Positions 3,331 to 39,610 of a DNA stretch of 64,000 nucleotides are shown here, piece by piece (the stretch's first letter is position 1; every line of letters begins with the position of its first letter). Origin of the DNA: a virus. The notes beneath the pieces were generated by a model. It was not told the DNA's origin. It made no database searches and worked only from the letters and a program-made list of their open reading frames with translations. The stretch lies in IMG/VR virus record IMGVR_UViG_3300025508_000006, positions 32,001 through 96,000 of that record. One strand, written 5' to 3'. The translations under genes were made by a program, and so were the position numbers.

Positions 3331-3559
3331 ACTTGAAGGCAGTATGATGATGACAAAAAGTCGTTTCACTAATATGGTTGAAGATTGGGTACGTGAGAAG
3401 AGACAACCCTATATGGATGCTGTAGTAGCGATTTGTGAGAACAATAATATGGATGTAGAAGATTGTAAGAAGTTTATCTCGCCCGTCATCAAGAACAAAA
3501 TTGAGGCAGAAGCAATGTCTCTAAACTTCCTACCTAGGCAGAATACTCTGCCTTTATGA
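3323..3559 (+). CDS. 33: Late transcription coactivator gp33
   Basis: YMDAVV..CE.N.MDVED..K.IS..IK.KIEAEA..LNFLP; located near gp32. Confidence 0.85.
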   Translation: MIKLEGSMMMTKSRFTNMVEDWVREKRQPYMDAVVAICENNNMDVEDCKKFISPVIKNKIEAEAMSLNFLPRQNTLPL

Positions 3560-24500: not shown

Positions 24501-26921
24501 GCGAAAGCATTTGCTTTAAGAACATTACATAATAAATATGGACTATCACAATCCGCCACTATCAAACGTATTATCTCTGGTAATACTCTACGTAACGTAG
24601 TAGGTGACAGAACTATTGATGTTGCATTTGTACCATGGATTAGATCACGTAAGATTTACTTCAAGGCACAAGGACTAACGCCCAACACTAAGTTTACACC
24701 ATTCTTTGATGGTACTGATGTTTCAGTTTGGTGTCGCGAAGAATCATCGTTTGTTCAGTGGTCTGATAGAACAGATGAGATTGGTAACAAGTTTACTCAC
24801 TCAGCGATAGTCGGTCATCCAGACGGCACAAGCGATCTGATTGCTGATGCTAACGGCGAAGTTATTGGATCATTCTTCATTCCTAATATCAGTCCTAAGT
24901 TAGAAGTTGCTCACACTAAGTATCGCGGACGATACAACAAATATTATCTACGATTCAGATCAGGCGCACGAGAGTTCAAACTTCTCGATATTAATGTCAA
25001 TGATTGGGCAAGTGCAAACAGTAAAGCATTCACTCACTATACTGTTAAAGGTCTGTTGCCTTGGACTTGGTACAATCCTTTAACTTATACACGTGGTCAT
25101 CGTTATCTTTATCCTTACAACTATCGACATAAGTTGTATTCAGCAAAAGAAATGAAAAAGGTTCTTGATAGTATACCAGCGAGTCAGGTGAATATTATTG
25201 ATCCAAGATTATCTGGACTATATGGTCCTGACGGTGTATCTCTGAATGCGGCAGCACTACAGACGCTTGCTAATAATCAAGATATGTCTAAGGTTCTGTC
25301 TGACTACATTAACGTGAATCAGGCACAGTTCGCTTCTATTCTTGGTGTAAGAGCAATTCCTACTCCTATGAATCCATTGGCACAGTCCTTTAAAGTCAAC
25401 AACGAGTTTGGCGTAACACTAACTAAAATCGAGTTGTTCTTTAAGTCGAAACCAACTAATGTATCTCTGCCTGTTTCTGTACATGTTCGTCCTGTAGAGA
25501 ATGGTAAACCTTCGATGAGTAGCATAGTACCAGACTCGCATGTTTATGTCAATAGTGCAAATGTTATTGTTTCTAGCACAGGTGCTCAGTTAGCAACTAT
25601 TCAAGGTAATGGAACGTCATTCGTATTCGACGAACCTATTTACTTGGCACCAGGACAAGACTATGCTATTGTAGTTACTTCACAGTCAACTGAATATGAA
25701 TTGTTCAGTGCTAGAACTAGAGAGTCGGTTATCAACTCAACTGGTAGATACAACACTACACAAACTCCGGGTTATCTCTTCTTACCACAAAATGGTAAGA
25801 ACTGGGAGAAATCACAGAACGAAGACTTAATGTTTAAAGTTACTCGTGCAGTGTTCGGTTCAGGCGGCGGTGCTAACGGTAGTGTGATATTGAAAAATGC
25901 TTCTGTTCCTGCTAAACTTCTTGAAGAGAATCCGATTCAAACTACGTTCAGCGACGAAAAGATTTATGTACGTCACATCAATCACGGTTTACGTCCAGGT
26001 GATGGTTGTAATGTTGATAGTGCTACAGAAACGGGTGGTTTCTCTGCCGCACAGTTGAGCGGTTCGCATCAAGTTATTGATGTTGATATGTACGGTTACA
26101 GATTTGAAATTGATCCTTCTAATCCTGTTGTTGCTACATCAACAGCAACTGGTGGTGGTGAGAGAGTATTGTCACAAGGAAATATAAACTTCTCAGTAGT
26201 TAATCCAATTATCGAGTCGATTATTCCTAACTCTACTTCGATTGATGTATCAGGTAAGTTTACTTCTGGGCGATCAATCTCTGGTTCAGAAACTCGATTT
26301 ACACAGGACGCTAATTTTAACAGAATTACTCCTAAGACTAATACTGATCTTGCCTCAACGTTCACTCTGTATAACGACTTCGAAGTTGATTCATCTACCA
26401 TGAGCGGAATCAATTCTTCTACTTTGTTTAAAGTTGACATGAAGAGTGCTAATGATTATGTTTCACCAATCATTGACTTACAAAGATCATCTTTGGTCAC
26501 AGTAAACAATCTAGTTGATGATCCATCGGTTACTCCTCACATCTATAGTGTTGGAGCAACGGCAGCATCAGGAGCGTCTTCAAGTACTGCTCACATTATG
26601 AAACCAGTTGTTCTTGATCAACCTGCTATCGGTATTGAGATTACAGCGGAGTTAGCGATACACTATACAAGTAATGTTAAAGTATACTATAGAGTAGGCG
26701 CCGCAGATGAGAATCTTAATGATCTTGTATGGATACTTCAACCAGAATTTAGCACTATCGTTAAAGATGCACAAATGCGTAAAGTTAAGTTTCTTGCTGG
26801 TGGTCAGGGCGGTACACTGAAACCATTTAATCAAGCACAGACTAAGTTGATTATTGAAGGAACTGATCCTGCAAATACAGCAAAAATAGGTGATATAGTT
26901 GTTAAGTGGTTAGCAAGTTAA
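21543..26921 (+). CDS. Large virion structural protein (DUF4815/VrlC-like)
   Basis: YHQILF..GRALQSRELTQMQ, PGADRLRI, RTKEESGDY, YYLPR.D, YTMKDIG.I..R, PWIRSR and PLAQSF. Confidence 0.8.
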   Translation: MANIFTSNTLSGSYADDYNANDNYHQILFNSGRALQSRELTQMQTLIYEEMGRMGSNIFKDGAVVNGGGVSMNNAYHFVKIASTNQGGEFGAIPNGTIIKNPNTNVSAQVIQAIPANGTQLFDTLFVEYINSGNALATNSPTTFGDNETLVEQFATSSAYELVTETPDATGYGAKFTVAEGDFFILGRFVHTEEQSIILSSYTGDNINAEVGFKVIQQVVTVTDTDSLYDNASGIVNTASPGADRLRIRLELTTRDLIGVNDTFVFLAEVENSAISEQLQSIDAYSKIEELLALRTKEESGDYVVEPFIVNVSENDNGIDANLELNVSEGTAYVNGYRAENQSPITLSLPRPTETETVENDVIGVNYGNYFVCTANRGLPNLDLARVDLWSATGYGGGGTDYGTCRIRAVEPFGTKFKVYVFDMRVFTTEDLGNVKSIGSSTTDYFDIDLQGGKAVLHETTNNNTALFAAAYPRIESLADIVLSKQVRQQKTASTNAVTLDQLPVGSSYVDSSLWIVSLSSAVIEAPSTYTVAITNGGRDATITSLASASGTYEILAYVQKTATVRPKTLTTATATINSTTDSAGRTLFDIGVPDIYSIDSVRQSNSVGFDLSSAVVLDDGQRDNYYADGSLLLKEGHADPSAIYISYKHFARGSGDFYAPSSYNVPYKDIPLHTSVTGDTIDLRDVVDFRGDRNGFEGTFSNVNALPRVGTNITADIDYYLPRADKVIITPEGEVQVLMGQQAREPQFKETPMHSMELYKIILNGNTISENDLTVLPTAQQRGYTMKDIGDIDRKLDALEESTSLSIAELEARLDNVLDSAGVIRIISGMQVDEHGDQGNSEVESPDYKAAIDPENRLVRPSFEEGNMRLIFDSAASSGVVKKGDNVYLAHTEASWVNQSIASRSVKINPFGLIDNVGTMKLSPSTDEWKESIQNAAKSLAGSGRLFGNQAFLWNNWMWNWQGRTAKENAEISKLAGVVRTGSGRAKAFALRTLHNKYGLSQSATIKRIISGNTLRNVVGDRTIDVAFVPWIRSRKIYFKAQGLTPNTKFTPFFDGTDVSVWCREESSFVQWSDRTDEIGNKFTHSAIVGHPDGTSDLIADANGEVIGSFFIPNISPKLEVAHTKYRGRYNKYYLRFRSGAREFKLLDINVNDWASANSKAFTHYTVKGLLPWTWYNPLTYTRGHRYLYPYNYRHKLYSAKEMKKVLDSIPASQVNIIDPRLSGLYGPDGVSLNAAALQTLANNQDMSKVLSDYINVNQAQFASILGVRAIPTPMNPLAQSFKVNNEFGVTLTKIELFFKSKPTNVSLPVSVHVRPVENGKPSMSSIVPDSHVYVNSANVIVSSTGAQLATIQGNGTSFVFDEPIYLAPGQDYAIVVTSQSTEYELFSARTRESVINSTGRYNTTQTPGYLFLPQNGKNWEKSQNEDLMFKVTRAVFGSGGGANGSVILKNASVPAKLLEENPIQTTFSDEKIYVRHINHGLRPGDGCNVDSATETGGFSAAQLSGSHQVIDVDMYGYRFEIDPSNPVVATSTATGGGERVLSQGNINFSVVNPIIESIIPNSTSIDVSGKFTSGRSISGSETRFTQDANFNRITPKTNTDLASTFTLYNDFEVDSSTMSGINSSTLFKVDMKSANDYVSPIIDLQRSSLVTVNNLVDDPSVTPHIYSVGATAASGASSSTAHIMKPVVLDQPAIGIEITAELAIHYTSNVKVYYRVGAADENLNDLVWILQPEFSTIVKDAQMRKVKFLAGGQGGTLKPFNQAQTKLIIEGTDPANTAKIGDIVVKWLAS

Positions 26922-27188: not shown

Positions 27189-30100
27189 ATGTCCTTACCG
27201 CTAAAACATCTCGGCACTGGTGCTCTTCAAGAACTCGCTACGCTTGATATTGATTATCTTGCGTATCAAGCGGGTATTCATCTTGGTAAAATGAGTAACG
27301 AAGATGTCTCTGCTATCTCCACAAATGGTAGCGGAGCAACAGTTGTCGGATCTTTTACAGATACTCTGTATGAGACAACAGTCGGTTCTACTCCAGGAAC
27401 AACTTACACCGTAAACTTTACTGTTGAACATCGTTCTAATCCTGGAACTGGTACACATACTGCAATATTCACAGCACAGAATGAAATGCCATCTCCTTTA
27501 TATGTCGGAGATACAGTTTATGTTATCGTGAACGGTGATGCTATAACTGGATTCGAAGAGATCGGACACGAACTTGCTGTATCTGGTGATGCACTATTTG
27601 TTACCGAAGGTGTTAACACAACACCTACAGCAAATTCAGTTGATGGAACAAGAGTCGAGTGGGAAGACTTTCAGAATGTCGCAGGTCTCTCGGGATCATA
27701 TCAGTCTGCCTTTGAAATTAAAGTGACTCAAGTAGGTCTCTTAAACTTTACTTTAACTGCTAACTCTACTGACGTAGATAACACAATCAAACAAACTGCT
27801 AATACTAGTATTATATTTCCTACTGTTGAAGTTGAAGAGACTTTACCACCGGAGTCTATAGGCGTACAGACTGATCTTTATCAAAAGACTACTGCTTCAC
27901 AACCTATTAATACGACCAGTGCTTTAAAGAAAAATCCAATATACTGGAACAGAGCATTAACGCCTAATGGTGTTAAGGAGATGAATGACGCAGAACTTGA
28001 CGCATTTTGCGAAGAGTTAGTCATACGTATTATGCGGGACGAGTTGCCTGGTACTTATCGTCTATCCTCTAACAGTCCTGGTGCTAATTGGGTTCAGTTT
28101 ATTCCTAGCGTATTCGAAGATACTCGTGCTGACGGAACTACAGTACCGTATTCAATATGGATAAGACAAGCGGGTATTAAACCTACTGTAATCAGACCAG
28201 TTTATGTTGCACGTAATGTAGAGAATGGTTGGGCAGGACTAAAAGAACATACAGATGCCGAAGTAGAATTTACTTTCGGCGAACGCGTAAAGAAAGCAAT
28301 TGAAACTACAGGAATTGGTAAGTATCAGTTGCGCTCTTCAACACAAGGTGCACCCACTGATGCAGGTACATGGGTTGCACGTGGTAGTGCAATAGATACA
28401 AGACTTGAATACTTCTATGATACTGGTTATCAGGCACTAGAAACCTACACGTCACAATATACAGAAGATTATCTTGGTGAGTATGAAGCAACTTATGCGG
28501 GTAACTATGAACCCACTTACACAGGCGAGTTCACAGGCGATTACCTAGGCACTTACGATGGTGACTTCATTGGCAACTACACTCCAACATATGACGGTGA
28601 TTATCTAGGCGATTACTCGCAGAACTATCTTGGTGACTACAACACAGAATATACTCAGAACTATCTAGGTGACTATGTAAATCAATACACACCTACATAT
28701 GATGGTGCCGATTACATTAGTGATTATGAAAATACATATGATGCTGATGCTGTCATTGAGCAATATGCCAGCGACTACGAATCTGTCGATTACGTTGGCA
28801 ACTATATTTCTGATTATAACACAGACTATATTTCCGATTATACCAATACATATCTTTCAGACTATTCTGGTACAGAGTATGTCGGCAATTATATTTCTGA
28901 TTATCTAGGTGGATTCCAGACCGATTATCTCGGAAACTATATTTCAAATTATATTGATGATGTTTATGTAGGCAACTACATCACTGATTACACCAGCGAT
29001 TATATTAGTAACTATCTTGGATCTTATGATGGTGATTATCTAGGTGATTATGGCGCAAGTTATGAAGGTGCTTATGATAACTCATACGAAGGAGACTTCC
29101 AAGCAACTTATGCTGGTGACTTCACTGCTGATTATCTCGGAACATATCTGACAGATTACGATTCGCAATACGAAGGGCAGTTCTCTGAAAACTACGATGG
29201 TGATTACATCAGCGACTATCTCGGAACATATTCTAGTGGATATGAGTCTGAATATGAGACAGGTTATATAACCCAATACGAAGGCGCGTATGATGAATCA
29301 GAATATGTGGGCAACTTTGTTGCTAGTTATGATAACTCATACGAAGGAGACTTCCAAGCAACTTACGCTGGTGATTACATCAGCGACTATCTCGGAACAT
29401 ACCTAAATGATTATGATTCACAATATGAAGGTCAATTCGCAGATAACTACGCCGGCGATTACATCAGCGACTACCTTGGAACATACGCTAGTGGATATGA
29501 GTCTGATTACTCCACTGACTACCTTACACAATACGAAGGTGCGTATGATGAATCAGTATATGTGGGCAACTTTGTTGCTAGTTATGATAACTCATACGAG
29601 GGTGACTTTCAAGCAACTTATGCTGGTGACTTCACTGCTGATTATCTTGGAACATACCTAAATGATTATGATTCACAATATGAGGGTCAGTTCGCAGATA
29701 ACTACGATGGTGATTACATCAGCGACTATCTCGGAACGTACACTAGCGGATATGTGTCTGATTACTCTACTGACTATCTTACACAATACGAAGGTGCGTA
29801 TGATGAAGCGAATTATCTAGGAAACTTTGTTGCTGATTATGTGTCTGACTTCGAAGGTGCTTACACCAATTTGTATGCTGGTGATTATATCAGCGACTAT
29901 CTTGGAACATATGCTGGTGAATATGAAAGTGCTTATGCTACAAACTTCGATGGTATTTACGTTGGTGGATTCGATACAGATTATACAGCAACTTTTGATG
30001 GAGAATACGAGAACACCTATATCGGCAACTATGTTTCAGACTATCTTAATGAGTTTGAAACCACATACACAGGCGACTATGGTGGTGAATACACCTCTAC

Positions 30101-33100
30101 TTACGCCGGTAATTATAGTGGCAACTATATTTCAGATTATACGAATGAGTTTGAAACCACATACATCGGTGACTATGGCGGTGAATATGTTTCTACTTAC
30201 GCTGGTAATTATAGTGGCAACTATGTTTCAGACTATCTTAATGAGTTTGAAACCACATACGCAGGTGATTATGGTGGACAATATACTTCTACTTACGCTG
30301 GTAATTATAGTGGCAACTATGTTTCTGACTATCTTAATGAGTTTGAAACACCATACGTAGGAAATTATAGCGGTGAATATGTTTCTACTTACGCTGGTAA
30401 CTACCAAACACAATACGCCAATGACTATACTAATGAGTTTGAAACAACTTATACTGGTGATTATCTAGGTAACTATGAAACTGATTATGCAGGCAATTAT
30501 ATTACTCAATACTCTGCCGAATATCAAGTACCTTACACTGGTGTTTACACAGGCGATTACATCTCTGACTATATTGGTGATTACATCTCACCTTATGATG
30601 GCGCTCTGTACACTTCAGATTATATCTCTACTTACGAAAGTGCATATGGTGGTCAATTTGAATCATCATACACTGGAGTATTTGACGGAACAACATACTC
30701 AGGAAACTATGCTAGTCAATACGTAGGCAACTACATTGGCCTATACAACAAGAACTACGCGACAGCATATGAAGGCACTGATTACATATCCACATACGAA
30801 GAAACTTACACTGGAGATTATTCTGGACAATATTCTTCTGCTTATGTAAGCGTTTATGATGCTCAAGCATATGCTACAGCATACGAAGAGAATTATATTG
30901 GAGATTATTCTGGTACATTCGGTGCTACGTTCTTAGGAACTTATGATAGTTCAAACTATACTTCAACATACGTAGAGACTTATGTTGGTGATTATCTTGG
31001 TAATTATGCTTCTGCTTATGTAAGCGTTTATGATGCTCAAGCATATACTGCATCGTTTGACACAACCTATTCTGGTGAGTACTCGGGCGTATTTAACGCA
31101 TCTTTTGCAGGCGAATATGATAGTACACAATATACTTCATCATTTGAAACTACATATGTTGGTGATTATATTGGTCAATTTAGTCAGAACTTTGCTGCCA
31201 GTTTCGACGGAATACCTTATGTAGGATCATTCGAGACAAACTATGTCGGCAACTATCTCGGACTGTTCACAGGTCAGTTCTCAGCATCATTTGCGGGTTC
31301 TGATTACATCTCAATATTTACTGCTCAGTATACTTCGCAATATACTGGACAGTTTAGTGCTACTTTCAATGCTTCTTATGATGCTACAACATATGTAGGA
31401 GATTATGTATCTGGATACGCAACAGCATATAGCGGTGCGTTTGGTGCAACCTTTATTGGCGAATATGATAGACAAGCATATGATACACAGTTTTCAGCAA
31501 CTTATACCGGAAACTATATTGGTCTATTCTCTGCTACATTCTTAGGAACGTATGATAGAACAGGTTATGCTTCTAATTTTACTGCTGACTATACAGGTAA
31601 TTATACTGGTGCCTTCGGTGCTACATTCTTAGGAACGTATGATCGTCTGCAATACACAAATGAATTTGAAAGTGCATATCTCGGCAACTATATCGGACTG
31701 TTCACACAAACGTATATTGGTTCTTATCAAAGAATCAACTATCTTACACAGTACGAAGGCATATACACAGGTGATTATAGTGGTGCCTTCAGTGCTACAT
31801 TCTTAGGAACGTATGATCGTGCTGCCTATGCACGAGAGTATGACAGAGTTTATACAGGTAATTATACTGGCCAGTTCACAGCAAACTATGCCGCGACATA
31901 TGATCGAATTGACTACACTTCTCAATACACGGGCGGTTATACTGGCGGTCCCGCTGAAACTTTCGGTGCTACATTCTTAGGAACGTATGATCGTGCTGGA
32001 TACGTATCACAGTATACGGGTCAATATGTCGGTCAAATTAGCGAAGTGTTTGGTGCTGATTACACAGGTAACTATGATAGTAGTAACTACACTTCGTCTT
32101 ATACTGGACAATATGTAGGACAGATTGCTGAAAACGAGAATACCACCAATCAAGAATCTTTTGATAGTGGTCAATATGCCGCTCAGTACACAGGACAATA
32201 TGTAGGACAGGTTGCTAAAAACGAGAATACCACTAATGCTGAGTCGTATGATAGTTCAAACTACAACACACAATTTACTGGTAACTATACTGGCGGAGTT
32301 ACTGAGAATATAACCCAGTCACAGAACGAATCGTTCGCAAGAGATTCTTACGTCTCACAATATACTGGTCAGTATACTGGTGTAGTAGCACAAAACACTA
32401 ACGAAACCTTTACACAAAACTTTAACGAAGCGGGATCCTATCAGGTTGGTTATGTAGGACAATATATTGGTCAAGTTTCACAGACTCAGCAAACTGGTGA
32501 GAGTGAAAACTTCCAAGTAAATTATACTGGTGATTATACTGGTCAATATATTGGAGTGATTTCACAGACCCAACAGACTGCTACAAATGAAGACTTCAAC
32601 GTACAATATACTGGTGATTATACTGGTCAATATACTGGTGCTGTACAGGAAGCAATATCTTCTACTTACACCGGTGGTTATACTGGTGTTTACAGTGGTA
32701 GTTATACTGGTGGTTATACTGGTGGGGTTTCTCAGACTCAACAGACTGGCATTGCTGAAGCAATAACACAGTCACAGAATCAGTCATTCGCCCGCAATTA
32801 TGCTGGTAACATCTATGGGACTACTTCTCAGGTGTCTCTGGGATATACTTCTGACTCATATAATCTGGTGAGTAGTGTAGGTTATAACCCAATCAATCAA
32901 GGTGGTGCTTTTTACTCTGCCGGATCGATGTCTCCTACCTATTGGGGAGGAGGAGTCAATTCGACAGTCACTAAAGTATACAAAAAGAATAACTTTATAT
33001 ACGACGGCACCGGGCAAGATGAGATGCACCTGTTTTTCGGATCAACCTTCAGTGCATCACAGCAGGGTTCTTTCGGTTCTTTGTTTATATGGTATAGCGG

Positions 33101-36100
33101 GACTAGTACCACTGCGACTGCGGCAGACAGAGCGGGTCATCGATTCTATTCATCACAAGCAACATTGAGTCTCGGCACTAATCAAACGCATTACGCATGG
33201 TTACTGGGCAGTGTAGGTACCCAGTACCCTTTATGGACTTCCAATCTTAATGCTGAGGGTACACCGTGGAATGTTGCTTGGATTCCAAATACAACATCGT
33301 CTACTAATTATAATGCCGGTACGTACACAGGACAATACTCTGGTCAATATGTTGGTGTTTATGTTGGTGGATATACTGGAGTATATACTAGAGTACAACA
33401 AACTACTGTAATCGATAATGTCGCAGAAACAATTCAACAGTCATACACTGGAACATACACTGGTGGATATGAACGATCACAGAATCAAACTTTCAGTGCG
33501 GTCTATGCAGGAACTTATACTGGTCAATATACTGGTGGTTATGTTGGAGCATACGAGAGAGCGCAGAATCAAACTTTCACTGCGGTTTATCAAGGAACTT
33601 ATACTGGTATTTACACGGGTGGTTATGTTGGTCTATACGAGAGAGCGCAGAATCAAGAATTTGCTGTTGTATACACCGGTTCATACTTAGGCGACTACAC
33701 TGGACAATACTCTGGTGGTTATGAACGTGCGCAGGACGAAACATTCGGTGCAACATATATCGGTGACTATATCGGTCAATACTCTGGACAATACTCTGGT
33801 GTATATACACGAGAACAGGCAACAAATTATGCCTCTGATTATCTAGGAACATTTGTCGGTAACTATACTGGACAATACCTTGGATTATATGAACGTGCCC
33901 AGAATGAATCGTTCACCGTAAACTATCAAGGAACTTATACTGGTGGTTATACTGGACAATATGCGGGTCTATATGAACGTGCGCAGGACCAAGCATTCGC
34001 GGCAAACTATCTCGCAACTTTTGAAGGCGCATTCGGAGCGCAGTACACAGGACTATATGAACGTGCGCAGGACCAAACATTTGCTGCCACATACACAGGA
34101 ACATTTGAAGGTAACTATGTATCACAATACACTGGTTCTTATGAACGAGTGCAGGATCAGCAGTTCTCTGCTAACTATCTAGGAACGTTCAACGCGAGTT
34201 ATGCTTCTCAGTACGAAGGCGCGTTCGCTTCCGACTATGCCACACAATATGCTTCACAGTACGTAGGAACATTTGAAGGTGACTATCTATCACAATACAC
34301 CGGTGGATTCACTCAGAACTTTACAGGTCAGTTCGGTGTTAACTATGAAGGAACGTTTGACGGTAATTATGCGACACAGTACGAAGGTAATTTCTCACAA
34401 TCTTTTACTGGTACTTATGCTACACAATATACAGGAACATTTGAAGGTAACTATGTATCAGAATACTCGGGTGCATTTGCCGCTCTTTATACAGGAGACT
34501 TTGCTGCCTCGTATCTAGCAACGTTTGATGGAAATTATGTTAGTCAATATGAAGGTAACTTTGCTGCCAACTTCGGGGCGCAGTTCAGTGAACAATATAT
34601 TGGAACTTTCTCTGGTGACTATGTGTCAGAATATATCGGCGCATTCAATGTTACATATCAAGGCAATTACACTTCTGATTACATTGATACATACACATCC
34701 GATTATGTTTCACAGTATGAGTCGCAGTTCTCCGCTGTATATGCTGGCAACTTCGAAGGTGCATATACAGATGATTATCTTGGCGAGTATGCTAGTCAAT
34801 ACGAAGGCAACTTTAGTGCAACATTCACTGGAACTTATAACGTAGATTACATCGACACATATACCTCTCAATACCTGTCTACTTACGAAGGTGCTTTTCA
34901 AGCACAGTTCATAGGAACATACGACTCACAGTATCTAGGAACTTTCATCGGTGATTATGGTTCAGCATATGAAAGCAACTTTACTGCTAACTTTGATGGA
35001 ACATATGATTCAGCATATATCGACACTTATGCGGGTGATTATATCTCGGCATACACAGGTGCTTTCCAAGCAAACTTTGAAGGAACCTACGACACACAGT
35101 ATCTAGGAACATTTGAAGGCAACTATGTGTCACAGTACACTGGTGACTTTGCCGCAACATTCACTGGAACCTATGACGTTGATTATATTGATACATATGC
35201 TGGTGATTATATCTCGGCATACATAGGTACTTTCCAAGCAAACTTTGTTGGAACATATGATGGTAACTTCACAGGAACTTATGCTACAGGTTACAACACT
35301 GACTATGAAGGAGCGTTCTTAGTTGACTATCTTGGTGATTACATATCTGATTATGTTCCTACATATGAAGGTCAATATGCTACTCAATATGAAGGTGATT
35401 ATGCATCGCAGTACTTAGGTAATTATAACTCTGCTTACACATCCACTTATGACGGTAACTTCACTCAGACATATGCGGGTAACTTTACTGATGTATATGT
35501 TTCTGACACATATATCGGCGATTACATAAATCAGTACACGCAAGATTATGTATCTGGATATGCGACACAGTACGAAGGAGCATTCCAACAGAACTATATC
35601 GGAACTTATGACACTCAGTACGAATCACAATACACTCAAGATTATGTTTCTGACTACGATTCTGGTTATGTCGGTGACGATTTAGAGCAATATGATGGCA
35701 CTTACGGAACTGCATATGCGGGCGACTTCATACAGGACTTTATCACTGACTATGATTCTCAATACGAAGGAGACTTCCAACAGAACTATGTAGGCACTTA
35801 CGGAACTGCATATTCTGGAGACTTCGTACAGGATTTTATCACTGACTATGATTCAGGTTACGAAGGAGACTTCCAACAGAACTATGCTGGCACTTACGGA
35901 ACTGCATATGCGGGTGACTTCATACAGGACTTTATCACGGACTACGATTCTAGTTACGAAGGAGATTTCCAACAGAACTATGTAGGCACTTATCAGACTG
36001 CCTATGCTGGAGACTTCACTGCGGACTATCTTACTCAGTACACAGCATCTTACGATGGCACTGTCTATGCTGGAACATACGACTCAAATTATATCAATCA

Positions 36101-37718
36101 GTATGAGTCAGACTTTACTGAACAATATACTGGTGAGTACGACGACATTGATTATGCAGGTAATTATATCAGTGACTTCGAAACTGATTACACGGGTTTC
36201 TATACCTCAGATTACATAGGCGATTATCAGAGTAATTATCTAGCAACATACGCAGGATTCTACGAGACTGCATTCACTGCAACTTATGCAAGTGAATATA
36301 CTTCTAACTACGATGATCAAGATTATGCTGGCAACTATGTTAGTCTTTACACTGGGGATTTCATTGGACAATATACTTCAACTTATGAGACTGCTTATGA
36401 TGACATCAACTACGTAGGCAACTATATCAGTGACTATGTTGGTGACTATAGCGGTGATTATGTAACAGATTACGTAGGGGATTATCAGAGTGATTACCTA
36501 GCAACATACGCAGGATTCTATGAGACTGGATACCTTACAACATATGGAAGTGAATATACTTCTAACTATGACGACATTGATTATGCTGGTAATTATATTA
36601 GTCTTTACATTGGCGACTTCATTGGACAATATACTTCAACTTATGAGACTGCTTATGACGACATTGATTATGGTGGTAATTATATTAGTGACTATGTTGG
36701 TGACTATAGTGGTGATTATGTAACAGACTACATAGGCGATTATGAGAGTAATTATCTAGCAACGTATGCAGGATTCTATGAGACAGAATACCTTACAACA
36801 TATGCAAGTGAATACACGTCCAACTATGATGATCAAGATTATGCTGGCAACTATGTTAGTCTTTACATTGGTGACTTCATTGGACAATATACTTCAACTT
36901 ATGAAACCGCATATGATGACATCAACTATGTGGGTAATTATATTAGCGACTATGTTGGTGACTATAGCGGTGATTATGTAACAGATTACACTGGAGTTTA
37001 CGAAGAGCAGAACTACCTCGGCAATTACGTATCAACTTATGATGATATTGAATATGAAGGTAACTATGATTCAATCTACACTACAGATTATCTTGTTGAC
37101 TTCGAGGGTAATTACTTAGGTGATTACAACACAATCTACGAAGGAACTTATGAGTCTTTATATTCAGGTGACTTCTTACAAGGATTTGATGGAGTCTATG
37201 AGGGTGGTTTCGATTCTACTTACGCAGGTGATTACGGTACTACTTACGCAGGAGACTATGAGTCAAACTACACACTAACTTATGTTGGTGATTATCTTGG
37301 TGACTATACTCCATCGTACTCAACTCTATATGCTGGCAACTACACAGGCACTTATGACGCTGATGCAGTAGATGAGTCTTACACTGTTGATTATATCGAA
37401 CAAACTTATGATACGGACTACACAGTAGACTATCAAGAGGATGTCTATCTGGGCAACTATATAGATACATTTGACGGCGCAGATGTTGAAGAGACTTACG
37501 TTTCCTCTTATGACGATGTTGATTATTCTACTGACTATTCTTCTGACTACGATAATGTCGATGCAATAGAGAACTATCAAGATGCTGATTACACAGGAAC
37601 ATATACTCAAGACTATGCGATAGATTATCAAACATCTATATTATACGGTGTTGGTGGCAAGTTACTTGCTAATCCAGTACAAATTGAAACATACACATTA
37701 TATGTAAGGGTAGCATAA
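27189..37718 (+). CDS. Giant Tyr/Gly/Asp tetrad-repeat virion fibre protein (3509 aa)
   Basis: Uninterrupted ORF under a late promoter. About 420-aa N-terminal domain, two arms of about 1450 aa with (Y/F)xxx repeats flanking a non-repetitive domain of about 165 aa, and a short C-terminal strand (ETYTLYVRVA). Confidence 0.8.
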   Translation: MSLPLKHLGTGALQELATLDIDYLAYQAGIHLGKMSNEDVSAISTNGSGATVVGSFTDTLYETTVGSTPGTTYTVNFTVEHRSNPGTGTHTAIFTAQNEMPSPLYVGDTVYVIVNGDAITGFEEIGHELAVSGDALFVTEGVNTTPTANSVDGTRVEWEDFQNVAGLSGSYQSAFEIKVTQVGLLNFTLTANSTDVDNTIKQTANTSIIFPTVEVEETLPPESIGVQTDLYQKTTASQPINTTSALKKNPIYWNRALTPNGVKEMNDAELDAFCEELVIRIMRDELPGTYRLSSNSPGANWVQFIPSVFEDTRADGTTVPYSIWIRQAGIKPTVIRPVYVARNVENGWAGLKEHTDAEVEFTFGERVKKAIETTGIGKYQLRSSTQGAPTDAGTWVARGSAIDTRLEYFYDTGYQALETYTSQYTEDYLGEYEATYAGNYEPTYTGEFTGDYLGTYDGDFIGNYTPTYDGDYLGDYSQNYLGDYNTEYTQNYLGDYVNQYTPTYDGADYISDYENTYDADAVIEQYASDYESVDYVGNYISDYNTDYISDYTNTYLSDYSGTEYVGNYISDYLGGFQTDYLGNYISNYIDDVYVGNYITDYTSDYISNYLGSYDGDYLGDYGASYEGAYDNSYEGDFQATYAGDFTADYLGTYLTDYDSQYEGQFSENYDGDYISDYLGTYSSGYESEYETGYITQYEGAYDESEYVGNFVASYDNSYEGDFQATYAGDYISDYLGTYLNDYDSQYEGQFADNYAGDYISDYLGTYASGYESDYSTDYLTQYEGAYDESVYVGNFVASYDNSYEGDFQATYAGDFTADYLGTYLNDYDSQYEGQFADNYDGDYISDYLGTYTSGYVSDYSTDYLTQYEGAYDEANYLGNFVADYVSDFEGAYTNLYAGDYISDYLGTYAGEYESAYATNFDGIYVGGFDTDYTATFDGEYENTYIGNYVSDYLNEFETTYTGDYGGEYTSTYAGNYSGNYISDYTNEFETTYIGDYGGEYVSTYAGNYSGNYVSDYLNEFETTYAGDYGGQYTSTYAGNYSGNYVSDYLNEFETPYVGNYSGEYVSTYAGNYQTQYANDYTNEFETTYTGDYLGNYETDYAGNYITQYSAEYQVPYTGVYTGDYISDYIGDYISPYDGALYTSDYISTYESAYGGQFESSYTGVFDGTTYSGNYASQYVGNYIGLYNKNYATAYEGTDYISTYEETYTGDYSGQYSSAYVSVYDAQAYATAYEENYIGDYSGTFGATFLGTYDSSNYTSTYVETYVGDYLGNYASAYVSVYDAQAYTASFDTTYSGEYSGVFNASFAGEYDSTQYTSSFETTYVGDYIGQFSQNFAASFDGIPYVGSFETNYVGNYLGLFTGQFSASFAGSDYISIFTAQYTSQYTGQFSATFNASYDATTYVGDYVSGYATAYSGAFGATFIGEYDRQAYDTQFSATYTGNYIGLFSATFLGTYDRTGYASNFTADYTGNYTGAFGATFLGTYDRLQYTNEFESAYLGNYIGLFTQTYIGSYQRINYLTQYEGIYTGDYSGAFSATFLGTYDRAAYAREYDRVYTGNYTGQFTANYAATYDRIDYTSQYTGGYTGGPAETFGATFLGTYDRAGYVSQYTGQYVGQISEVFGADYTGNYDSSNYTSSYTGQYVGQIAENENTTNQESFDSGQYAAQYTGQYVGQVAKNENTTNAESYDSSNYNTQFTGNYTGGVTENITQSQNESFARDSYVSQYTGQYTGVVAQNTNETFTQNFNEAGSYQVGYVGQYIGQVSQTQQTGESENFQVNYTGDYTGQYIGVISQTQQTATNEDFNVQYTGDYTGQYTGAVQEAISSTYTGGYTGVYSGSYTGGYTGGVSQTQQTGIAEAITQSQNQSFARNYAGNIYGTTSQVSLGYTSDSYNLVSSVGYNPINQGGAFYSAGSMSPTYWGGGVNSTVTKVYKKNNFIYDGTGQDEMHLFFGSTFSASQQGSFGSLFIWYSGTSTTATAADRAGHRFYSSQATLSLGTNQTHYAWLLGSVGTQYPLWTSNLNAEGTPWNVAWIPNTTSSTNYNAGTYTGQYSGQYVGVYVGGYTGVYTRVQQTTVIDNVAETIQQSYTGTYTGGYERSQNQTFSAVYAGTYTGQYTGGYVGAYERAQNQTFTAVYQGTYTGIYTGGYVGLYERAQNQEFAVVYTGSYLGDYTGQYSGGYERAQDETFGATYIGDYIGQYSGQYSGVYTREQATNYASDYLGTFVGNYTGQYLGLYERAQNESFTVNYQGTYTGGYTGQYAGLYERAQDQAFAANYLATFEGAFGAQYTGLYERAQDQTFAATYTGTFEGNYVSQYTGSYERVQDQQFSANYLGTFNASYASQYEGAFASDYATQYASQYVGTFEGDYLSQYTGGFTQNFTGQFGVNYEGTFDGNYATQYEGNFSQSFTGTYATQYTGTFEGNYVSEYSGAFAALYTGDFAASYLATFDGNYVSQYEGNFAANFGAQFSEQYIGTFSGDYVSEYIGAFNVTYQGNYTSDYIDTYTSDYVSQYESQFSAVYAGNFEGAYTDDYLGEYASQYEGNFSATFTGTYNVDYIDTYTSQYLSTYEGAFQAQFIGTYDSQYLGTFIGDYGSAYESNFTANFDGTYDSAYIDTYAGDYISAYTGAFQANFEGTYDTQYLGTFEGNYVSQYTGDFAATFTGTYDVDYIDTYAGDYISAYIGTFQANFVGTYDGNFTGTYATGYNTDYEGAFLVDYLGDYISDYVPTYEGQYATQYEGDYASQYLGNYNSAYTSTYDGNFTQTYAGNFTDVYVSDTYIGDYINQYTQDYVSGYATQYEGAFQQNYIGTYDTQYESQYTQDYVSDYDSGYVGDDLEQYDGTYGTAYAGDFIQDFITDYDSQYEGDFQQNYVGTYGTAYSGDFVQDFITDYDSGYEGDFQQNYAGTYGTAYAGDFIQDFITDYDSSYEGDFQQNYVGTYQTAYAGDFTADYLTQYTASYDGTVYAGTYDSNYINQYESDFTEQYTGEYDDIDYAGNYISDFETDYTGFYTSDYIGDYQSNYLATYAGFYETAFTATYASEYTSNYDDQDYAGNYVSLYTGDFIGQYTSTYETAYDDINYVGNYISDYVGDYSGDYVTDYVGDYQSDYLATYAGFYETGYLTTYGSEYTSNYDDIDYAGNYISLYIGDFIGQYTSTYETAYDDIDYGGNYISDYVGDYSGDYVTDYIGDYESNYLATYAGFYETEYLTTYASEYTSNYDDQDYAGNYVSLYIGDFIGQYTSTYETAYDDINYVGNYISDYVGDYSGDYVTDYTGVYEEQNYLGNYVSTYDDIEYEGNYDSIYTTDYLVDFEGNYLGDYNTIYEGTYESLYSGDFLQGFDGVYEGGFDSTYAGDYGTTYAGDYESNYTLTYVGDYLGDYTPSYSTLYAGNYTGTYDADAVDESYTVDYIEQTYDTDYTVDYQEDVYLGNYIDTFDGADVEETYVSSYDDVDYSTDYSSDYDNVDAIENYQDADYTGTYTQDYAIDYQTSILYGVGGKLLANPVQIETYTLYVRVA
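28446..32810 (+). repeat. N-arm coding repeats (12-nt tetrads; higher-order 255-nt x3 and 96-nt x4 units)
   Basis: GATAACTCATACGA at 29076, 29331 and 29586 (255-nt spacing); 96-nt units from 30024. Confidence 0.9.
33308..37640 (+). repeat. C-arm coding repeats (12-nt tetrads; higher-order 96-nt x3-4 and 258-nt x3 units)
   Basis: GGCACTTA at 35697, 35793, 35889 and 35985; GCAAC.TA.GCAGGATTC at 36243, 36501 and 36759. Confidence 0.9.
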
Positions 37719-38191
37719 TGACAGTGGAATTTTTAGACAATGGATTTTGGGAAAACGAAGAAAAGACAATACTTAAATGTATTCGCTTAACTCCTATACC
37801 AGAAGGAGGTAGAAAGAAAGACGTTCTTGAACTACGTAAGATATTGCCGGACGGTTCAGAATGTCCTCAGTTCAAGCAGTGTATCGCACAGCATGGTATA
37901 GCAAAGATTGATGCTAATACGCAAGTTCGAAAGGATACTAAAGAGAAAGAAGATCGAGAGAAACGTGCTATACACGAGCAACGTAAAAAATCTCACGAAC
38001 TTGAACAACTCTTTAATGCCAAACTACAAGCATTCGAAATTGATGAGATCAAGAACTCAACAAATCGCGAGTTGCGTTCTAAACTACGTAGGGCGAAGAA
38101 TGTTATTGAAATGAATGCATTGGCAGCATTAGTGATTGGAAGTGAACTTGGTTATTTTAAAAAGGTAGATGAAGATGAGCGAACCGACTAA
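37718..38191 (+). CDS. Hypothetical protein, possible fibre chaperone/accessory
   Basis: Start overlaps the giant gene stop; charged and helical (LF.AKL.AFEI.EIKNS.NR..RSKLR.AK). Confidence 0.6.
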   Translation: MTVEFLDNGFWENEEKTILKCIRLTPIPEGGRKKDVLELRKILPDGSECPQFKQCIAQHGIAKIDANTQVRKDTKEKEDREKRAIHEQRKKSHELEQLFNAKLQAFEIDEIKNSTNRELRSKLRRAKNVIEMNALAALVIGSELGYFKKVDEDERTD

Positions 38192-38933
38192 AGGTTATGT
38201 TATTGTAGCATCACGAAAGAAGTTTTTTTATGTCTCTGCCATTAATTTGATGGAGTCAATCAAAGATTATTATCCTGAAGCACAGATTACATTTGTAGTA
38301 GAAGAAAAGTTTCTTGACGGACAAGAAAGAATTGCAGACAATGTTATATTCTGCGACGATCATGCTAGAGCAAAACTGATTGGTATGGCAAAGTCTCCGT
38401 ATGATATAACGTTTTATGTCGATGCTGATATAGAATGTGAACATGAAGACATTGCAACTATCTTTGATAAACTTGATGGACACGATTTGATGTTTACTGG
38501 TTTACCTGCTGATAGGCATTATTGCTATGCCGAGGTGTTCTTCGAGGGTGCAAGAAAACCAGACGGCACTAAAGCAGGATTTGAATTGTGTGGTGGTGTT
38601 TGTCTATATGATATGCGTAAACCCTTAGTTCGTTCATTCATGCAAGATTGGTATGACTTGACTGTTGCTCAGTACGGTAAAGTTTGGTGGCCAACATTAG
38701 AAGATGGAGTGACCGAAGATTTAGAAAATTATCCTGCAACTCTGAAGAGATGGGATCAATTCTCACTGTGGTGGTTAGTCAATAAAGAACCTAAGTACAA
38801 AGATTTGAAAGTCGGTATACTAGAAGACGATGCTCGGTGGAACTTTTATTCCAAATATAAATATGATCACAACAAGGATCCTGTCGTATTGAGACACTAT
38901 TCTTCTTCTGGAGCAAAGCAACTGGATTTTTAA
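38175..38933 (+). CDS. GT-A fold glycosyltransferase-like protein
   Basis: GYVIVAS....Y..A.NL..SIKDYYP, SPYD.T.YVDAD (DxD), GGV.LY, WDQFSLW, RWN and terminal HYS. Confidence 0.75.
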   Translation: MSEPTKGYVIVASRKKFFYVSAINLMESIKDYYPEAQITFVVEEKFLDGQERIADNVIFCDDHARAKLIGMAKSPYDITFYVDADIECEHEDIATIFDKLDGHDLMFTGLPADRHYCYAEVFFEGARKPDGTKAGFELCGGVCLYDMRKPLVRSFMQDWYDLTVAQYGKVWWPTLEDGVTEDLENYPATLKRWDQFSLWWLVNKEPKYKDLKVGILEDDARWNFYSKYKYDHNKDPVVLRHYSSSGAKQLDF

Positions 38934-38935
38934 AT

Positions 38936-39610
38936 ATGATGAAAAATATACCACTGAATGATTATGCAATTAATCTTCTGAACGAAGCACTTTGGTTTAC
39001 TAAGGAAGAGAACTACAGTGCTGTTATTCCTTCTAAGATAAATGATTTAGATAAAGCAGATTGGTACACTGGTCAAGAATATTTCGAGCAGATTAAGGGC
39101 GAGGGCAGACAACATGATGGGTTCCCCGCTTTCGTTACTAGTTATTCATTCAATCAAGATTATAGGTTTGATCCTCGTAATCCACATATTGATCGAAAGA
39201 TAGCAGAAGTTGCAGATCATCATGGCAAGTTGATGACTAATATACAGACCGCTTTCAATCTTAAAAAGAATGCTCTGTTCTCTGTATATCCGCCCGGTGG
39301 TTATATCTCATGGCACAACAATGCGAATGCTTCGGCATATAACTTTATATTCACTTACAGTGAAACTGGTGATGGTTGGTGGAAGCATTGGGATCCAGTC
39401 AATCAGAAAATGATTCACATTCCTGATGTTAAAGGTTGGCAATGTAAAGCAGGACACTTCGGTGCATATGAAGATGGACCCGAATCCCTAGTATATCACA
39501 CTGCACGTAATGGTGAAAGCGGAATACGTATGACAATTGCCTTTGTATTAGATCGATCAGAGATGTCTTTAGGTATACAAGATTGGGTAATTGAAGATAT
39601 ACACGTCTAA
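38936..39610 (+). CDS. DSBH/2OG-Fe(II) oxygenase-like protein
   Basis: YPPGGYISWHNN, distal YHTA and R.TIAF strand, typical of the jelly-roll oxygenase layout. Confidence 0.6.
   Translation: MMKNIPLNDYAINLLNEALWFTKEENYSAVIPSKINDLDKADWYTGQEYFEQIKGEGRQHDGFPAFVTSYSFNQDYRFDPRNPHIDRKIAEVADHHGKLMTNIQTAFNLKKNALFSVYPPGGYISWHNNANASAYNFIFTYSETGDGWWKHWDPVNQKMIHIPDVKGWQCKAGHFGAYEDGPESLVYHTARNGESGIRMTIAFVLDRSEMSLGIQDWVIEDIHV

What the first reader, a model, noticed from the sequence alone, without database searches (positions are those of the whole stretch)
27189..37718. Giant 3509-aa protein with mirror-symmetric arms: a predicted fold-back antiparallel hairpin fibre
Seen: both repeat arms place an aromatic (mostly Tyr) every 4th residue and are almost equal in length (about 4365 vs 4330 nt) on either side of a central non-repetitive domain. 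Their higher-order repeats occur in reverse order with matched periods but different sequences. The N-arm has 85-aa x3 units (21 aromatic tetrads each; 29073-29840), then 32-aa units (8 tetrads; from 30024). The C-arm has 32-aa units (8 tetrads; from 35697), then 86-aa x3 units (21 tetrads; about 36140-36910). The 32-aa blocks lie about 2.4-2.8 kb from the central domain on both sides. Blocks with skipped aromatics (SQTQQT/ENENTT vs YERAQNQ) flank the centre, and YDADAV occurs near both outer ends. Inference: the chain runs out and folds back in register, bringing the N- and C-termini together at the virion and putting the central domain at the tip. At the fully extended beta-strand rise an arm could span several hundred nm. 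I do not recognise this architecture from characterised T4-like fibres.
Basis: partly seen in the sequence, partly recalled or inferred. Interest (0 to 1): 0.93.

Follow-up and report, generated by a model that had tools for sequence, protein, structure and literature searches.

The report
Giant fold-back hairpin phage fibre
A 3509-residue tail-module protein of an uncultured T4-like aquatic phage almost certainly runs out 354 four-residue repeats, makes a fast-evolving tip domain and runs back paired with itself, because relatives gain and lose repeats in both halves by the same amounts at mirror-image places.

Summary
ORF 27189-37718 encodes 3509 aa with Tyr/Phe at every 4th residue. Its two arms carry super-repeats in mirror order: 85/32/29 aa, centre, then 28/32/86 aa. 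Counting one-residue slips as bulges, each arm holds exactly 354 tetrads.

The fold-back reading is supported by independent evidence.
- Full-length relatives of 2814-3508 aa differ from the window by deletions of 170/64/58 aa in the N arm and 56/64/172 aa in the C arm. In tetrads these are 42/16/14 against 14/16/42.
- Amino-acid substitutions between relatives coincide at mirror positions, and the register follows the 29:28 bulges.
- Across 49 homologs the arm lengths correlate (r = 0.87), and sister pairs show matched indels.
- The invariant last 18 residues are predicted to add a strand to the N-terminal domain (score 0.82; best control 0.00).
- The centre is the fastest-evolving part, at 37-51% identity against 75-91% in the arms.

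Not shown: the oligomeric state, the true length (estimated 0.3-0.47 µm) and attachment to the virion. The closest known analogue is the short fold-back needle of T4 gp37, which is not a relative. This scan has reported the same family before on other DNA (eight earlier notes). I found no paper describing it.

The parts
27189..37718 (+). Giant fibre gene, 3509 aa plus stop
27189..28403 (+). N-terminal globular domain (aa 1-405), the conserved anchor domain of the family. Aa ~228-405 are shared by all 292 relatives found.
   Evidence: AF2 of two homologs gives pLDDT >90 for this domain. No Pfam or PHROG match. No clear PDB fold match.
28446..32786 (+). N arm (outgoing strand), aa 420-1866: 354 tetrads plus 31 slip residues; net charge about -190
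29031..29858 (+). N-arm block of about 3.2 units of 85 aa (21 tetrads + 1). Two units are absent in L005, L006 and L002.
29946..30518 (+). N-arm block of 32-aa units (8 tetrads). Two units are absent in L005 and four in L006.
30609..32438 (+). N-arm 29-aa units (7 tetrads plus one extra residue, read as a beta bulge), about 21 units. Four 24-40-aa units with skipped aromatics follow, up to aa 1866.
32787..33323 (+). Central non-repeat domain (aa 1867-2045), the proposed distal tip. It is the fastest-evolving part of the protein and has no detectable homologs outside close relatives.
33324..37628 (+). C arm (returning strand), aa 2046-3480: 354 tetrads plus 18 slip residues; net charge about -200
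33324..35507 (+). C-arm 28-aa units (7 tetrads), about 25-26 units, facing the N-arm 29-aa units one for one
35526..36068 (+). C-arm block of 32-aa units, the mirror partner of the N-arm 32-aa block
36006..36998 (+). C-arm block of about 3.8 units of 86 aa (21 tetrads + 2), the mirror partner of the 85-aa block. Two units are absent in L005 and L006.
37662..37715 (+). C-terminal docking strand (aa 3492-3509, ending ...ETYTLYVRVA). The last 29 aa (3481-3509) are 100% identical in the three close relatives L004, L005 and L006. The motif is conserved across the family.
37718..39610 (+). Three tightly linked downstream genes (157, 254 and 224 aa), syntenic with the fibre gene in every relative examined. 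They may act in fibre maturation; their function is not established.

Best explanation
The protein is a self-paired fold-back fibre. The N-terminal domain (aa 1-405) is the base. The gene lies between baseplate-wedge and tail-fibre genes, so the base presumably sits on the baseplate.

The chain runs outward for 354 four-residue repeats and forms a ~180-aa distal tip domain, the likely receptor-binding part. It then returns antiparallel and in register for another 354 repeats. Its last ~18 residues insert as a beta strand into the N-terminal domain and close the hairpin.

Aromatic and small residues alternate on one face of each strand ([YF]-x-[GSTA]-x). This suits a long antiparallel beta ribbon in which Tyr/Phe packs over Gly/Ser of the partner strand. 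One-residue bulges let 29-aa units face 28-aa units, and 85-aa units face 86-aa units.

Fibre length is adjusted in evolution by unequal recombination within the tandem units. Only variants that change both arms by the same number of tetrads at facing positions persist.

Shown by computation: mirror register, matched indels, mirror co-substitution, predicted docking of the termini, and a hypervariable centre.

Inferred: pairing within one chain, the beta-ribbon conformation, bundling (perhaps a trimer, as in the T4 gp37 needle), a length of roughly 0.3-0.47 µm, and receptor binding by the tip.
For: 1. Matched mirror indels in full-length natural variants.
- Window vs L005 (86% identity): N arm -170 at aa 687, -64 at 992, -58 at 1205; C arm -56 at 2626, -64 at 2837, -172 at 3032.
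- In tetrads this is 42/16/14 against 14/16/42. The midpoints of the facing deletions sum to 3890, 3893 and 3888.
- Window vs L006: N arm -170, -32, -96, -58; C arm -56, -96, -32, -172.
- L005 vs L006: -32, -32 in each arm.
- L007 vs L009: -166 and -189.
- L002, from another sample, carries the same N-arm deletions as L005.

2. Equal arms. Each arm has 354 slip-corrected tetrads. By the same counting, L007 has about 229 in each arm.

3. Mirror co-evolution.
- Window vs L004 has 183 N-arm and 182 C-arm substitutions.
- The 40-aa divergence profile of the N arm correlates with the reversed C-arm profile (r = 0.78, p = 1.5e-8). The same-direction control gives r = -0.18.
- The co-substitution count peaks at i + j = 3891.
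- The local optimum drifts 3891, 3900, 3902, 3911 going inward. This is what one extra residue per 29-aa unit predicts.
- Along the slip-corrected path the peak is at offsets 0 and 2 (393 and 390; next best 315; z = 4.0 within phase class).
- Within the single sequence, mutual information between facing residue classes also peaks at offsets 0-2. Acid-acid pairs are depleted.

4. Family-wide pattern.
- In 49 complete homologs with one central gap, arm lengths correlate at r = 0.87.
- Of 19 sister pairs with arm indels, 17 changed both arms, and 15 of those 17 changed in the same direction (p = 0.002; permutation p < 5e-5).
- Clean cases are +4/+4, -16/-16, +24/+24 and +32/+34 at mirror distances.

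5. Termini.
- Complex prediction of aa 1-470 with aa 3420-3509 scored 0.82 (three runs: 0.82, 0.75, 0.85). The best of 3 controls scored 0.00.
- That mark was reached by 58 of 80 solved complexes and 2 of 110 mismatched pairs; these counts hold only roughly because my own alignment was used.
- The runs agree in at least 44% of contacts, and partner pLDDT is 38-41.
- Aa 3492-3509 pair antiparallel with aa 376-382 and contact aa 393-401.
- AF2 of the homologs P0091 and P0084 gives pLDDT 85-96 for the last 20 residues packed on the N-domain, and draws the arms as one long hairpin.

6. Both ends are conserved and the centre is variable: N-domain 87-89%, C end 100%, centre 37-51% identity.
Against: - AF2 confidence in the arms themselves is low (pLDDT 25-48), so no tool gives a trustworthy model of the ribbon.
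- Nothing here distinguishes pairing within one chain from pairing between antiparallel chains.
- Slip positions are not mirrored, so bulges must be assumed.
- L007 vs L009 is matched only roughly: -40 against -47 tetrads.
- Several homologs in the crude survey have unequal arms, for example P0054 at 247/362. The 3347-aa C48C1 protein has about 1450 repeat residues before its large domain and about 665 after it.
- All relatives come from short-read assemblies. Long reads have not confirmed unit copy numbers. The Logan contigs do not bridge the arrays.
Confidence: 0.78

Rival explanations
1. Same mirror register, but the pairing is between chains. Two or more chains lie antiparallel, so the N arm of one pairs with the C arm of another, and each C-terminal strand docks on another chain's N-domain. 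This gives a two-ended rod or a swapped bundle, with the central domains in the middle rather than at a free tip.
For: Matched indels, mirror co-substitution and terminus docking are all equally expected under this model. Complex prediction was run with two separate chains, so it cannot tell intra-chain from inter-chain docking.
Against: - The centre ranges from a ~5-residue turn to a 1668-aa region between equal arms. An insertion at a hairpin tip explains that easily; two side-by-side mid-rod domains do so awkwardly.
- AF2 monomer models draw a hairpin, but at low confidence.
- The hypervariable centre fits an exposed distal tip.
- A rod with a baseplate-type domain at both ends has no obvious role on a virion.
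Confidence: 0.1
2. The chain folds back, but the arms are not an extended two-stranded ribbon. Each arm forms a compact repeat fold (for example a beta solenoid with about 28 residues per coil), and the two arms pack side by side. The fibre would then be roughly ten times shorter.
For: Super-periods of 28/29 aa and their multiples (85 = 28+28+29) dominate the window protein. Coil lengths that are multiples of 4 would stack the aromatic residues. AF2 gives no confident ribbon.
Against: - Super-periods differ within and between homologs: none, 8, 12, 24, 28, 29, 32 and 85 aa.
- Indels as small as one tetrad are matched in the other arm (+4/+4). This fits strand-to-strand register and does not fit a fixed coil.
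- The co-substitution and mutual-information peaks are sharp, at offsets 0-2 residues.
Confidence: 0.08
3. It is a conventional parallel homotrimeric fibre with no fold-back, with the N-terminus at the baseplate and the C-terminus distal. The mirror features would then be coincidental products of repeat turnover.
For: Most characterised phage fibres are parallel trimers. The gene sits in a fibre module.
Against: - This gives no reason for equal arms, for mirror-ordered matched indels in three or four block pairs per comparison, or for mirror-specific co-substitution (r = 0.78 against -0.18).
- An invariant C-terminus with a variable centre is the opposite of the usual pattern.
- Direct duplication would give the same block order, not the mirror order.
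Confidence: 0.03
4. The repeats, or their copy numbers, are assembly artefacts.
For: All sources are short-read metagenome assemblies. The k=31 contigs break at the arrays.
Against: - Units share at most 42 identical bases in a row and are 45-89% identical at DNA level, so they are too diverged to collapse at usual k-mer sizes.
- The same architecture appears in contigs from several samples.
- The frame is open over 10.5 kb in every copy.
- The gene is held at 99-100% identity in runs from four studies.
Confidence: 0.01

Closest known systems
Needle (tip) domain of the phage T4 long tail fibre protein gp37 (PDB 2XGF, Bartual et al. 2010, recalled from my own knowledge; iron sites and tip residues as described in PMC6957217)
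   Same: The chain runs out to a receptor-binding tip that lies in mid-sequence and then returns. The outgoing and returning strands form an antiparallel needle, and both chain ends lie in the proximal collar. It is part of a T4-type fibre.
   Different: - No sequence relation: the family profile and the central region find nothing in the PDB at E <= 1.
- gp37 arms are about 70 residues; these are 1416-1447.
- The gp37 needle is held by seven iron ions bound to HxH motifs. This protein has no His in its arms and no HxH anywhere.
- Here the shaft is a strict 4-residue aromatic/small repeat.
- gp37 is a proven trimer. The oligomeric state here is unknown.
Uncharacterised family of marine and aquatic phage proteins with this N-domain and the C-terminal ETYTLYVR motif (292 representatives at 50% clustering, 318 to 4046 aa; only Phage C48C1, Kyanoviridae, among deposited phage genomes)
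   Same: It has the same N-domain, tetrad arms, variable centre and invariant C-terminal strand. This protein is a member and is among the longest.
   Different: - The window protein has an extra insert of roughly 165 aa in the N-domain.
- Both arms are strongly acidic (421 D+E against 22 K+R), whereas many relatives have Arg-rich arms.
- Its centre is an orphan domain.
Other fibrous folds of phage and virus fibres: collagen-like triple helix, triple beta-helix, adenovirus/reovirus triple beta-spiral (from my own knowledge)
   Same: These are long, thin, repeat-built shafts that carry a receptor-binding domain.
   Different: Those are parallel trimers with periods of 3, about 8 or about 15 residues and a distal C-terminus. 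Here the period is 4, the termini are together, and the two halves of one chain are length-matched.

Membership tests
N-domain / ETYTLYVR fold-back fibre family (unnamed) | Homologous N-terminal domain | tested here: met
   phmmer with aa 1-414 found 292 proteins at E <= 1e-3 and 84 at E <= 1e-30
N-domain / ETYTLYVR fold-back fibre family (unnamed) | Conserved C-terminal strand ...ETYTLYVR[IV][AS] | tested here: met
   The window protein ends ...IETYTLYVRVA. The motif is present in nearly all complete homologs.
N-domain / ETYTLYVR fold-back fibre family (unnamed) | Two length-matched repeat arms around a variable centre | tested here: met
   354/354 tetrads; r = 0.87 over 49 homologs
T4 gp37 needle-type fibre tip | Chain folds back, so the tip is in mid-sequence and both ends are proximal | tested here: met
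   Indirect evidence only: matched mirror indels, mirror co-substitution and predicted docking of the termini
T4 gp37 needle-type fibre tip | HxH motifs coordinating iron along the needle | tested here: not met
   The protein has 9 His in 3509 aa, none in either arm, and no HxH
T4 gp37 needle-type fibre tip | Sequence or profile similarity to gp37 | tested here: not met
   No PDB chain at E <= 1 with the family profile A2 or the central region. No Pfam or PHROG match to the N-domain, a 1000-aa stretch of the N arm, the centre or the C-terminal 172 aa.
T4 gp37 needle-type fibre tip | Homotrimer forming a six-stranded needle | not tested
A trimer of a short homolog should be folded next.
Collagen-like fibre | Gly at every third residue (G-X-Y) | tested here: not met
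   The period is 4, with aromatic at position 0 and Gly/Ser/Thr/Ala at position 2
Beta-solenoid repeat proteins (pentapeptide-repeat or ice-nucleation type) | A constant coil length along the array | tested here: not met
   Super-periods vary (none, 28, 29, 32 and 85/86 aa in this protein; 8, 12 and 24 aa in homologs), and single-tetrad indels are tolerated when matched

The most novel reading that the evidence does not exclude
The fibre is a true extended antiparallel beta ribbon, alone or bundled, about 0.3-0.47 µm long, several times the length of a T4 long tail fibre. Its register is set residue by residue by a simple facing rule: aromatic residues opposite small ones, and acidic residues avoiding acidic ones. 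On this reading it behaves as a protein counterpart of an RNA stem-loop. Its length is tuned by compensatory repeat gains and losses, and the tip domain is swappable.
Probability: 0.45. Interest if true: 0.93.

Novelty: new variant of a known kind. Interest (0 to 1): 0.85.

Why it matters
If correct, this is a way of building a fibre not seen in solved structures. A single chain pairs with itself over about 1400 residues per arm, and the length is set by the number of four-residue rungs.

- **A new kind of evolutionary signal.** Compensatory indels and mirror co-substitution reveal long-range contacts in proteins much as covariation does for RNA helices. The same approach could find other self-paired repeat proteins.
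- **Phage biology.** It points to a hypervariable mid-sequence tip as the probable host-range determinant in a widespread group of uncultured T4-like aquatic phages. It also suggests that fibre reach is under selection, since natural variants span arms of roughly 180-190 to 354 tetrads.
- **Possible uses.** The design (conserved clasp, length-adjustable shaft, exchangeable tip) could serve as a scaffold for engineered fibres or Tyr-rich beta-ribbon materials.

Tried and rejected
- **Pfam and PHROGs** on the N-domain, the centre, a 1000-aa stretch of the N arm (Pfam only) and the C-terminal 172 aa (Pfam only): no match.
- **The search for homologous proteins.** With aa 1-414 among proteins of 1929-6141 aa: none. 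With the central domain among longer proteins: none. Local phmmer of the centre against all fetched proteins: none.
- **Fold searches on the P0091 model.** Foldseek against the PDB found nothing at E <= 0.001. VIA-align's best hit had Z 6.0 (rmsd 3.9, 123 aligned; perforin-P2/MABP-like domain), which is within the noise range the tool states. The N-domain fold therefore stays unassigned.
- **Phage genome collection.** Megablast of the neighbourhood found no match. tblastn found only Phage C48C1.
- **Viral contigs** with the central domain returned only the already known partial contig.
- **psbA (PF00124)** was not found in the held 116-kb, 67%-complete record. No conclusion about the host follows.
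- **Finding a mirror axis in the C48C1 protein** by aromatic coincidence along anti-diagonals was uninformative. Direct and mirror scores were equal.
- **First automatic arm segmentations** mis-set the boundaries for the window protein and for L007. They were corrected by hand.
- **Logan contigs** of four runs cover every part of the gene but break at the tandem arrays. They confirm neither copy numbers nor deletion variants. The few short-sided joints (sides of 20-23 bases) look like repeat cross-matches.
- **Literature searches** for a described fold-back or tetrad-repeat cyanophage fibre found nothing relevant.
Full report
**What is there**

The window is a structural-gene block of a T4-like phage.
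- PHROG matches around the gene include baseplate wedge subunits, tail tube cap, sheath, sheath stabiliser, portal, terminase and a 775-aa tail fibre protein.
- The source is an IMG/VR virus record of 116 kb, estimated 67% complete.
- ORF 27189-37718 (+) is open and encodes 3509 aa.
- The composition is extreme: 562 Tyr, 164 Phe, 420 Thr, 410 Gly, 293 Asp, and only 57 Lys+Arg.
- Gaps between successive aromatic residues are exactly 4 in 598 cases and 5 in 49.
- The tetrad consensus is [YF]-x-[GSTA]-[DTNQ] in both arms. On a beta strand, aromatic and small residues would therefore alternate on one face.

**The mirror layout is real**

Lag analysis and row-by-row printing give the following order:
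- N-domain (aa 1-405) and an irregular outer stretch;
- 85-aa units (~3.2), 32-aa units, about 21 units of 29 aa, and four 24-40-aa units with skipped aromatics;
- centre (aa 1867-2045);
- about 25-26 units of 28 aa, the first ten with a skipped aromatic;
- 32-aa units, 86-aa units (~3.8) and an irregular outer stretch;
- a 29-aa C-terminal end.

I treated every gap of 5, 6 or 9 as a tetrad multiple plus slip residues. On that count the N arm (aa 420-1867) has 31 slips and the C arm (aa 2046-3480) has 18. Both arms then have an effective length of 1416 residues, or 354 tetrads. I set the four boundaries by eye, so I read this as equality within about two tetrads.

Mirror-facing blocks also have matched net charge: -59/-61, -30/-32 and -49/-50.

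**The decisive test: natural length variants**

A metagenome scan with the C-terminal 220 aa returned complete genes on 53-309 kb contigs:

| Locus | Length (aa) |
|---|---|
| L004 | 3508 |
| L005 | 2926 |
| L006 | 2814 |
| L007 = L008 | 2478 |
| L009 | 2123 |
| L010 | 2480 |

Global alignments gave these indels:

| Comparison | N arm | C arm |
|---|---|---|
| Window vs L005 (86% identity) | -170, -64, -58 | -56, -64, -172 |
| Window vs L006 | -170, -32, -96, -58 | -56, -96, -32, -172 |
| L005 vs L006 | -32, -32 | -32, -32 |
| L007 vs L009 (96.5% identity) | -166 | -189 |

- For window vs L005, the sizes in tetrads are 42/16/14 against 14/16/42. The order is mirrored, and the midpoints of facing deletions sum to 3890, 3893 and 3888.
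- L007 vs L009 is matched only roughly, at 40 against 47 tetrads.
- L004 has the window's unit numbers at 86% identity.
- A partial IMG/VR contig from another sample (L002) has the same three N-arm deletions as L005.

No genetic mechanism yields mirror-ordered, size-matched changes in two arrays 5-7 kb apart that differ in sequence. Direct duplication would give the same order, and inverted duplication would not keep the frame. Selection for a maintained register between the arms explains the pattern.

Collapse by the assembler is unlikely. Units share at most 42 identical bases in a row and are 45-89% identical at DNA level.

The most similar unit pairs have about the same DNA identity in both arms: 0.89/0.86, 0.90/0.88 and 0.82/0.82. 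This suggests that the facing duplications were roughly contemporaneous.

**Residue-level signal**

- The window and L004 have no arm indels. They differ at 183 N-arm and 182 C-arm positions.
- The per-40-aa divergence profile of the N arm correlates with the reversed C-arm profile at r = 0.78 (p = 1.5e-8). The unreversed profile gives r = -0.18.
- Counting position pairs that are both substituted, the best constant sum i + j is 3891.
- With four sequences and local windows, the optimum is 3891 at aa ~900-1200, 3888 at ~1260, 3900 at ~1400, 3902 at ~1560 and 3911 at ~1710.
- That drift of +1 per 29-aa unit is what is expected if each 29-mer faces a 28-mer with one bulged residue.
- Along a slip-corrected mirror path, the co-substitution score peaks at offsets 0 and 2 (393 and 390). 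The next best is 315, the mean is 197, and z = 4.0 within each phase class.
- Within the window sequence alone, mutual information between facing residue classes also peaks at offsets 0-2. Acid-acid pairs are depleted and acid-Thr pairs are enriched.
- The two-residue ambiguity leaves open whether aromatic faces aromatic or aromatic faces Gly/Ser.

**The family**

phmmer with the N-domain found 292 proteins. A word-based search with a short member found 279 more clusters. Complete members run from about 320 to 4046 aa. All have the N-domain, two repeat arms, a centre ranging from a tight turn to 1668 aa, and the ending ETYTLYVR[IV][AS].

- In 49 complete members with one central gap, the arm lengths correlate at r = 0.87. 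Examples are 186/186, 153/153, 102/102, 341/329, 406/415 and 161/166.
- Among 39 closest-relative pairs, 19 have indels in the outer arms. Of these, 17 changed both arms, and 15 of those 17 changed in the same direction (p = 0.002; permutation p < 5e-5).
- Clean cases are +4/+4, -16/-16, +24/+24 and +32/+34 at mirror distances.
- Short members show mirrored irregularities. One is a GER interruption seven tetrads from each end. Another is a mirrored order of octad and tetrad units around the turn.

**Termini and tip**

- AF2 of P0091 (540 aa) and P0084 (420 aa), with alignments, gives pLDDT >90 for the N-domain and 85-96 for the last 20 residues packed against it.
- The arms are drawn as one long hairpin (E256-333, turn, E339-418 in P0084) but at pLDDT 25-48. 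I count this as neutral on the ribbon itself.
- For the window's own protein, complex prediction of aa 1-470 with aa 3420-3509 scored 0.82 (runs 0.82, 0.75, 0.85) against 0.00 for the best of three controls.
- That mark was reached by 58 of 80 solved complexes and 2 of 110 mismatched pairs; the counts are only rough because my own alignment was used.
- The runs share at least 44% of contacts, and partner pLDDT is 38-41.
- Aa 3492-3509 pair antiparallel with aa 376-382 and also touch aa 393-401. No similar complex is solved, as far as my searches show.
- Identity to L004, L005 and L006 is 87-89% in the N-domain, 75-91% in the arms, 100% in the last 29 aa, and only 37-51% in the centre.
- Flanking genes are 94-99% identical in L004-L006, except the 157-aa ORF at 90% in L006.
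- Conserved ends with a fast-evolving, orphan centre fit a proximal clasp and a distal receptor-binding tip.

**Mechanism proposed**

The chain leaves the N-domain, runs out, forms the tip, returns in register and clasps the N-domain with its last strand.

The repeat chemistry suits an antiparallel ribbon with aromatic rings packing over small residues of the partner strand. Bulges reconcile 29:28 and 85:86. At 0.2-0.33 nm per residue, 1416 residues give about 0.3-0.47 µm. This is an estimate, not a measurement.

Bundling, perhaps as a trimer as in gp37, and attachment to the baseplate are inferred only from the gene's neighbourhood and from the analogy with gp37.

**Comparison with the known**

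The nearest analogue is the needle of T4 gp37. It is a short fold-back with the receptor-binding tip in mid-sequence and seven iron ions bound by histidines. The iron sites and tip residues are described in PMC6957217. The fold-back topology is from my own recollection of PDB 2XGF.

This protein works like that needle in topology, but it is not a member:
- it has no sequence relation;
- it has no His in the arms;
- it has a different repeat;
- its arms are about twenty times longer.

Earlier notes of this scan describe the same family in other genomes with the same reading. One of them concerns a 2814-aa protein with 29-mer and 28-mer arms, which is probably the L006 type. I found no publication on the family.

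**Open problems**

- The C48C1 protein (3347 aa) has several globular inserts and unequal repeat content on either side of its large domain. A possible axis at its small domain (aa ~1290-1370) could not be tested.
- Pairing within a chain has not been separated from pairing between chains.
- Copy numbers rest on short-read assemblies.

Noticed in passing
window 37718-39610: Three overlapping or abutting genes (157, 254 and 224 aa) follow the fibre gene in every relative examined. They are more conserved than the fibre (254-aa: 96-99% identity in L004-L006, 89-90% in L007-L010, 55% in C48C1). The 254-aa protein has a DxD-like YVDADIE motif. Its language-model look-alikes include a cluster at 0.97 in which 51% of members carry Nucleotid_trans and 20% carry Glyco_transf_8. 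The 224-aa protein has only weak leads (<0.9) to 2OG-Fe(II)/Asp hydroxylases. Pfam finds nothing significant for any of the three (only a sub-threshold hit on the 157-aa ORF). The fibre may be modified or chaperoned by these products.
   Followed up: partly
L007 and L008 (contig Ga0208814_1000005, 289930-308986 and 135564-156169): The same 2478-aa fibre gene occurs twice, identically, about 154 kb apart on one 309-kb contig. The contig probably represents a ~154-kb genome assembled twice over.
   Followed up: no
L001 11734-21777 (Phage C48C1, OQ984149): The only deposited phage genome with this family carries a 3347-aa member with Arg-rich repeats and five or six interspersed globular domains. 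It also has a ~75-aa stretch repeated verbatim (aa ~2010-2160), which is either a recent duplication or an assembly problem. Its arms are not equal by my segmentation.
   Followed up: partly
P0091 (540-aa homolog), aa ~335-470: The middle of this short member is built of 8-residue GNPxIxY[IV] units instead of tetrads. They are arranged as 1 octad, 1 tetrad, 5 octads, turn, 5 octads, 1 tetrad, 1 octad. This is a second repeat type that obeys the same mirror rule.
   Followed up: partly
window 28400-37700 in public runs: At least 14 runs from about 10 studies labelled freshwater or aquatic metagenome (2017-2018) hold 90% or more of the gene's sampled words. Four that I laid match at 99-100% identity. 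The phage population is therefore widespread or repeatedly sampled in one kind of water body. The habitat names are coded, so I draw no conclusion about the host.
   Followed up: partly
window 21543-26921 and 41171-43498: The fibre gene is flanked by a 1792-aa protein of unknown function (phrog_358, E 7e-291), syntenic in all relatives. A few genes downstream lies a 775-aa protein matching several tail-fibre PHROGs. The phage therefore carries at least one other fibre system.
   Followed up: no
window 27189-28403: Compared with short family members, whose N-domain is about 250 aa, the window protein and its closest relatives have roughly 165 extra residues inserted after the first ~60 aa of the N-domain.
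   Followed up: no
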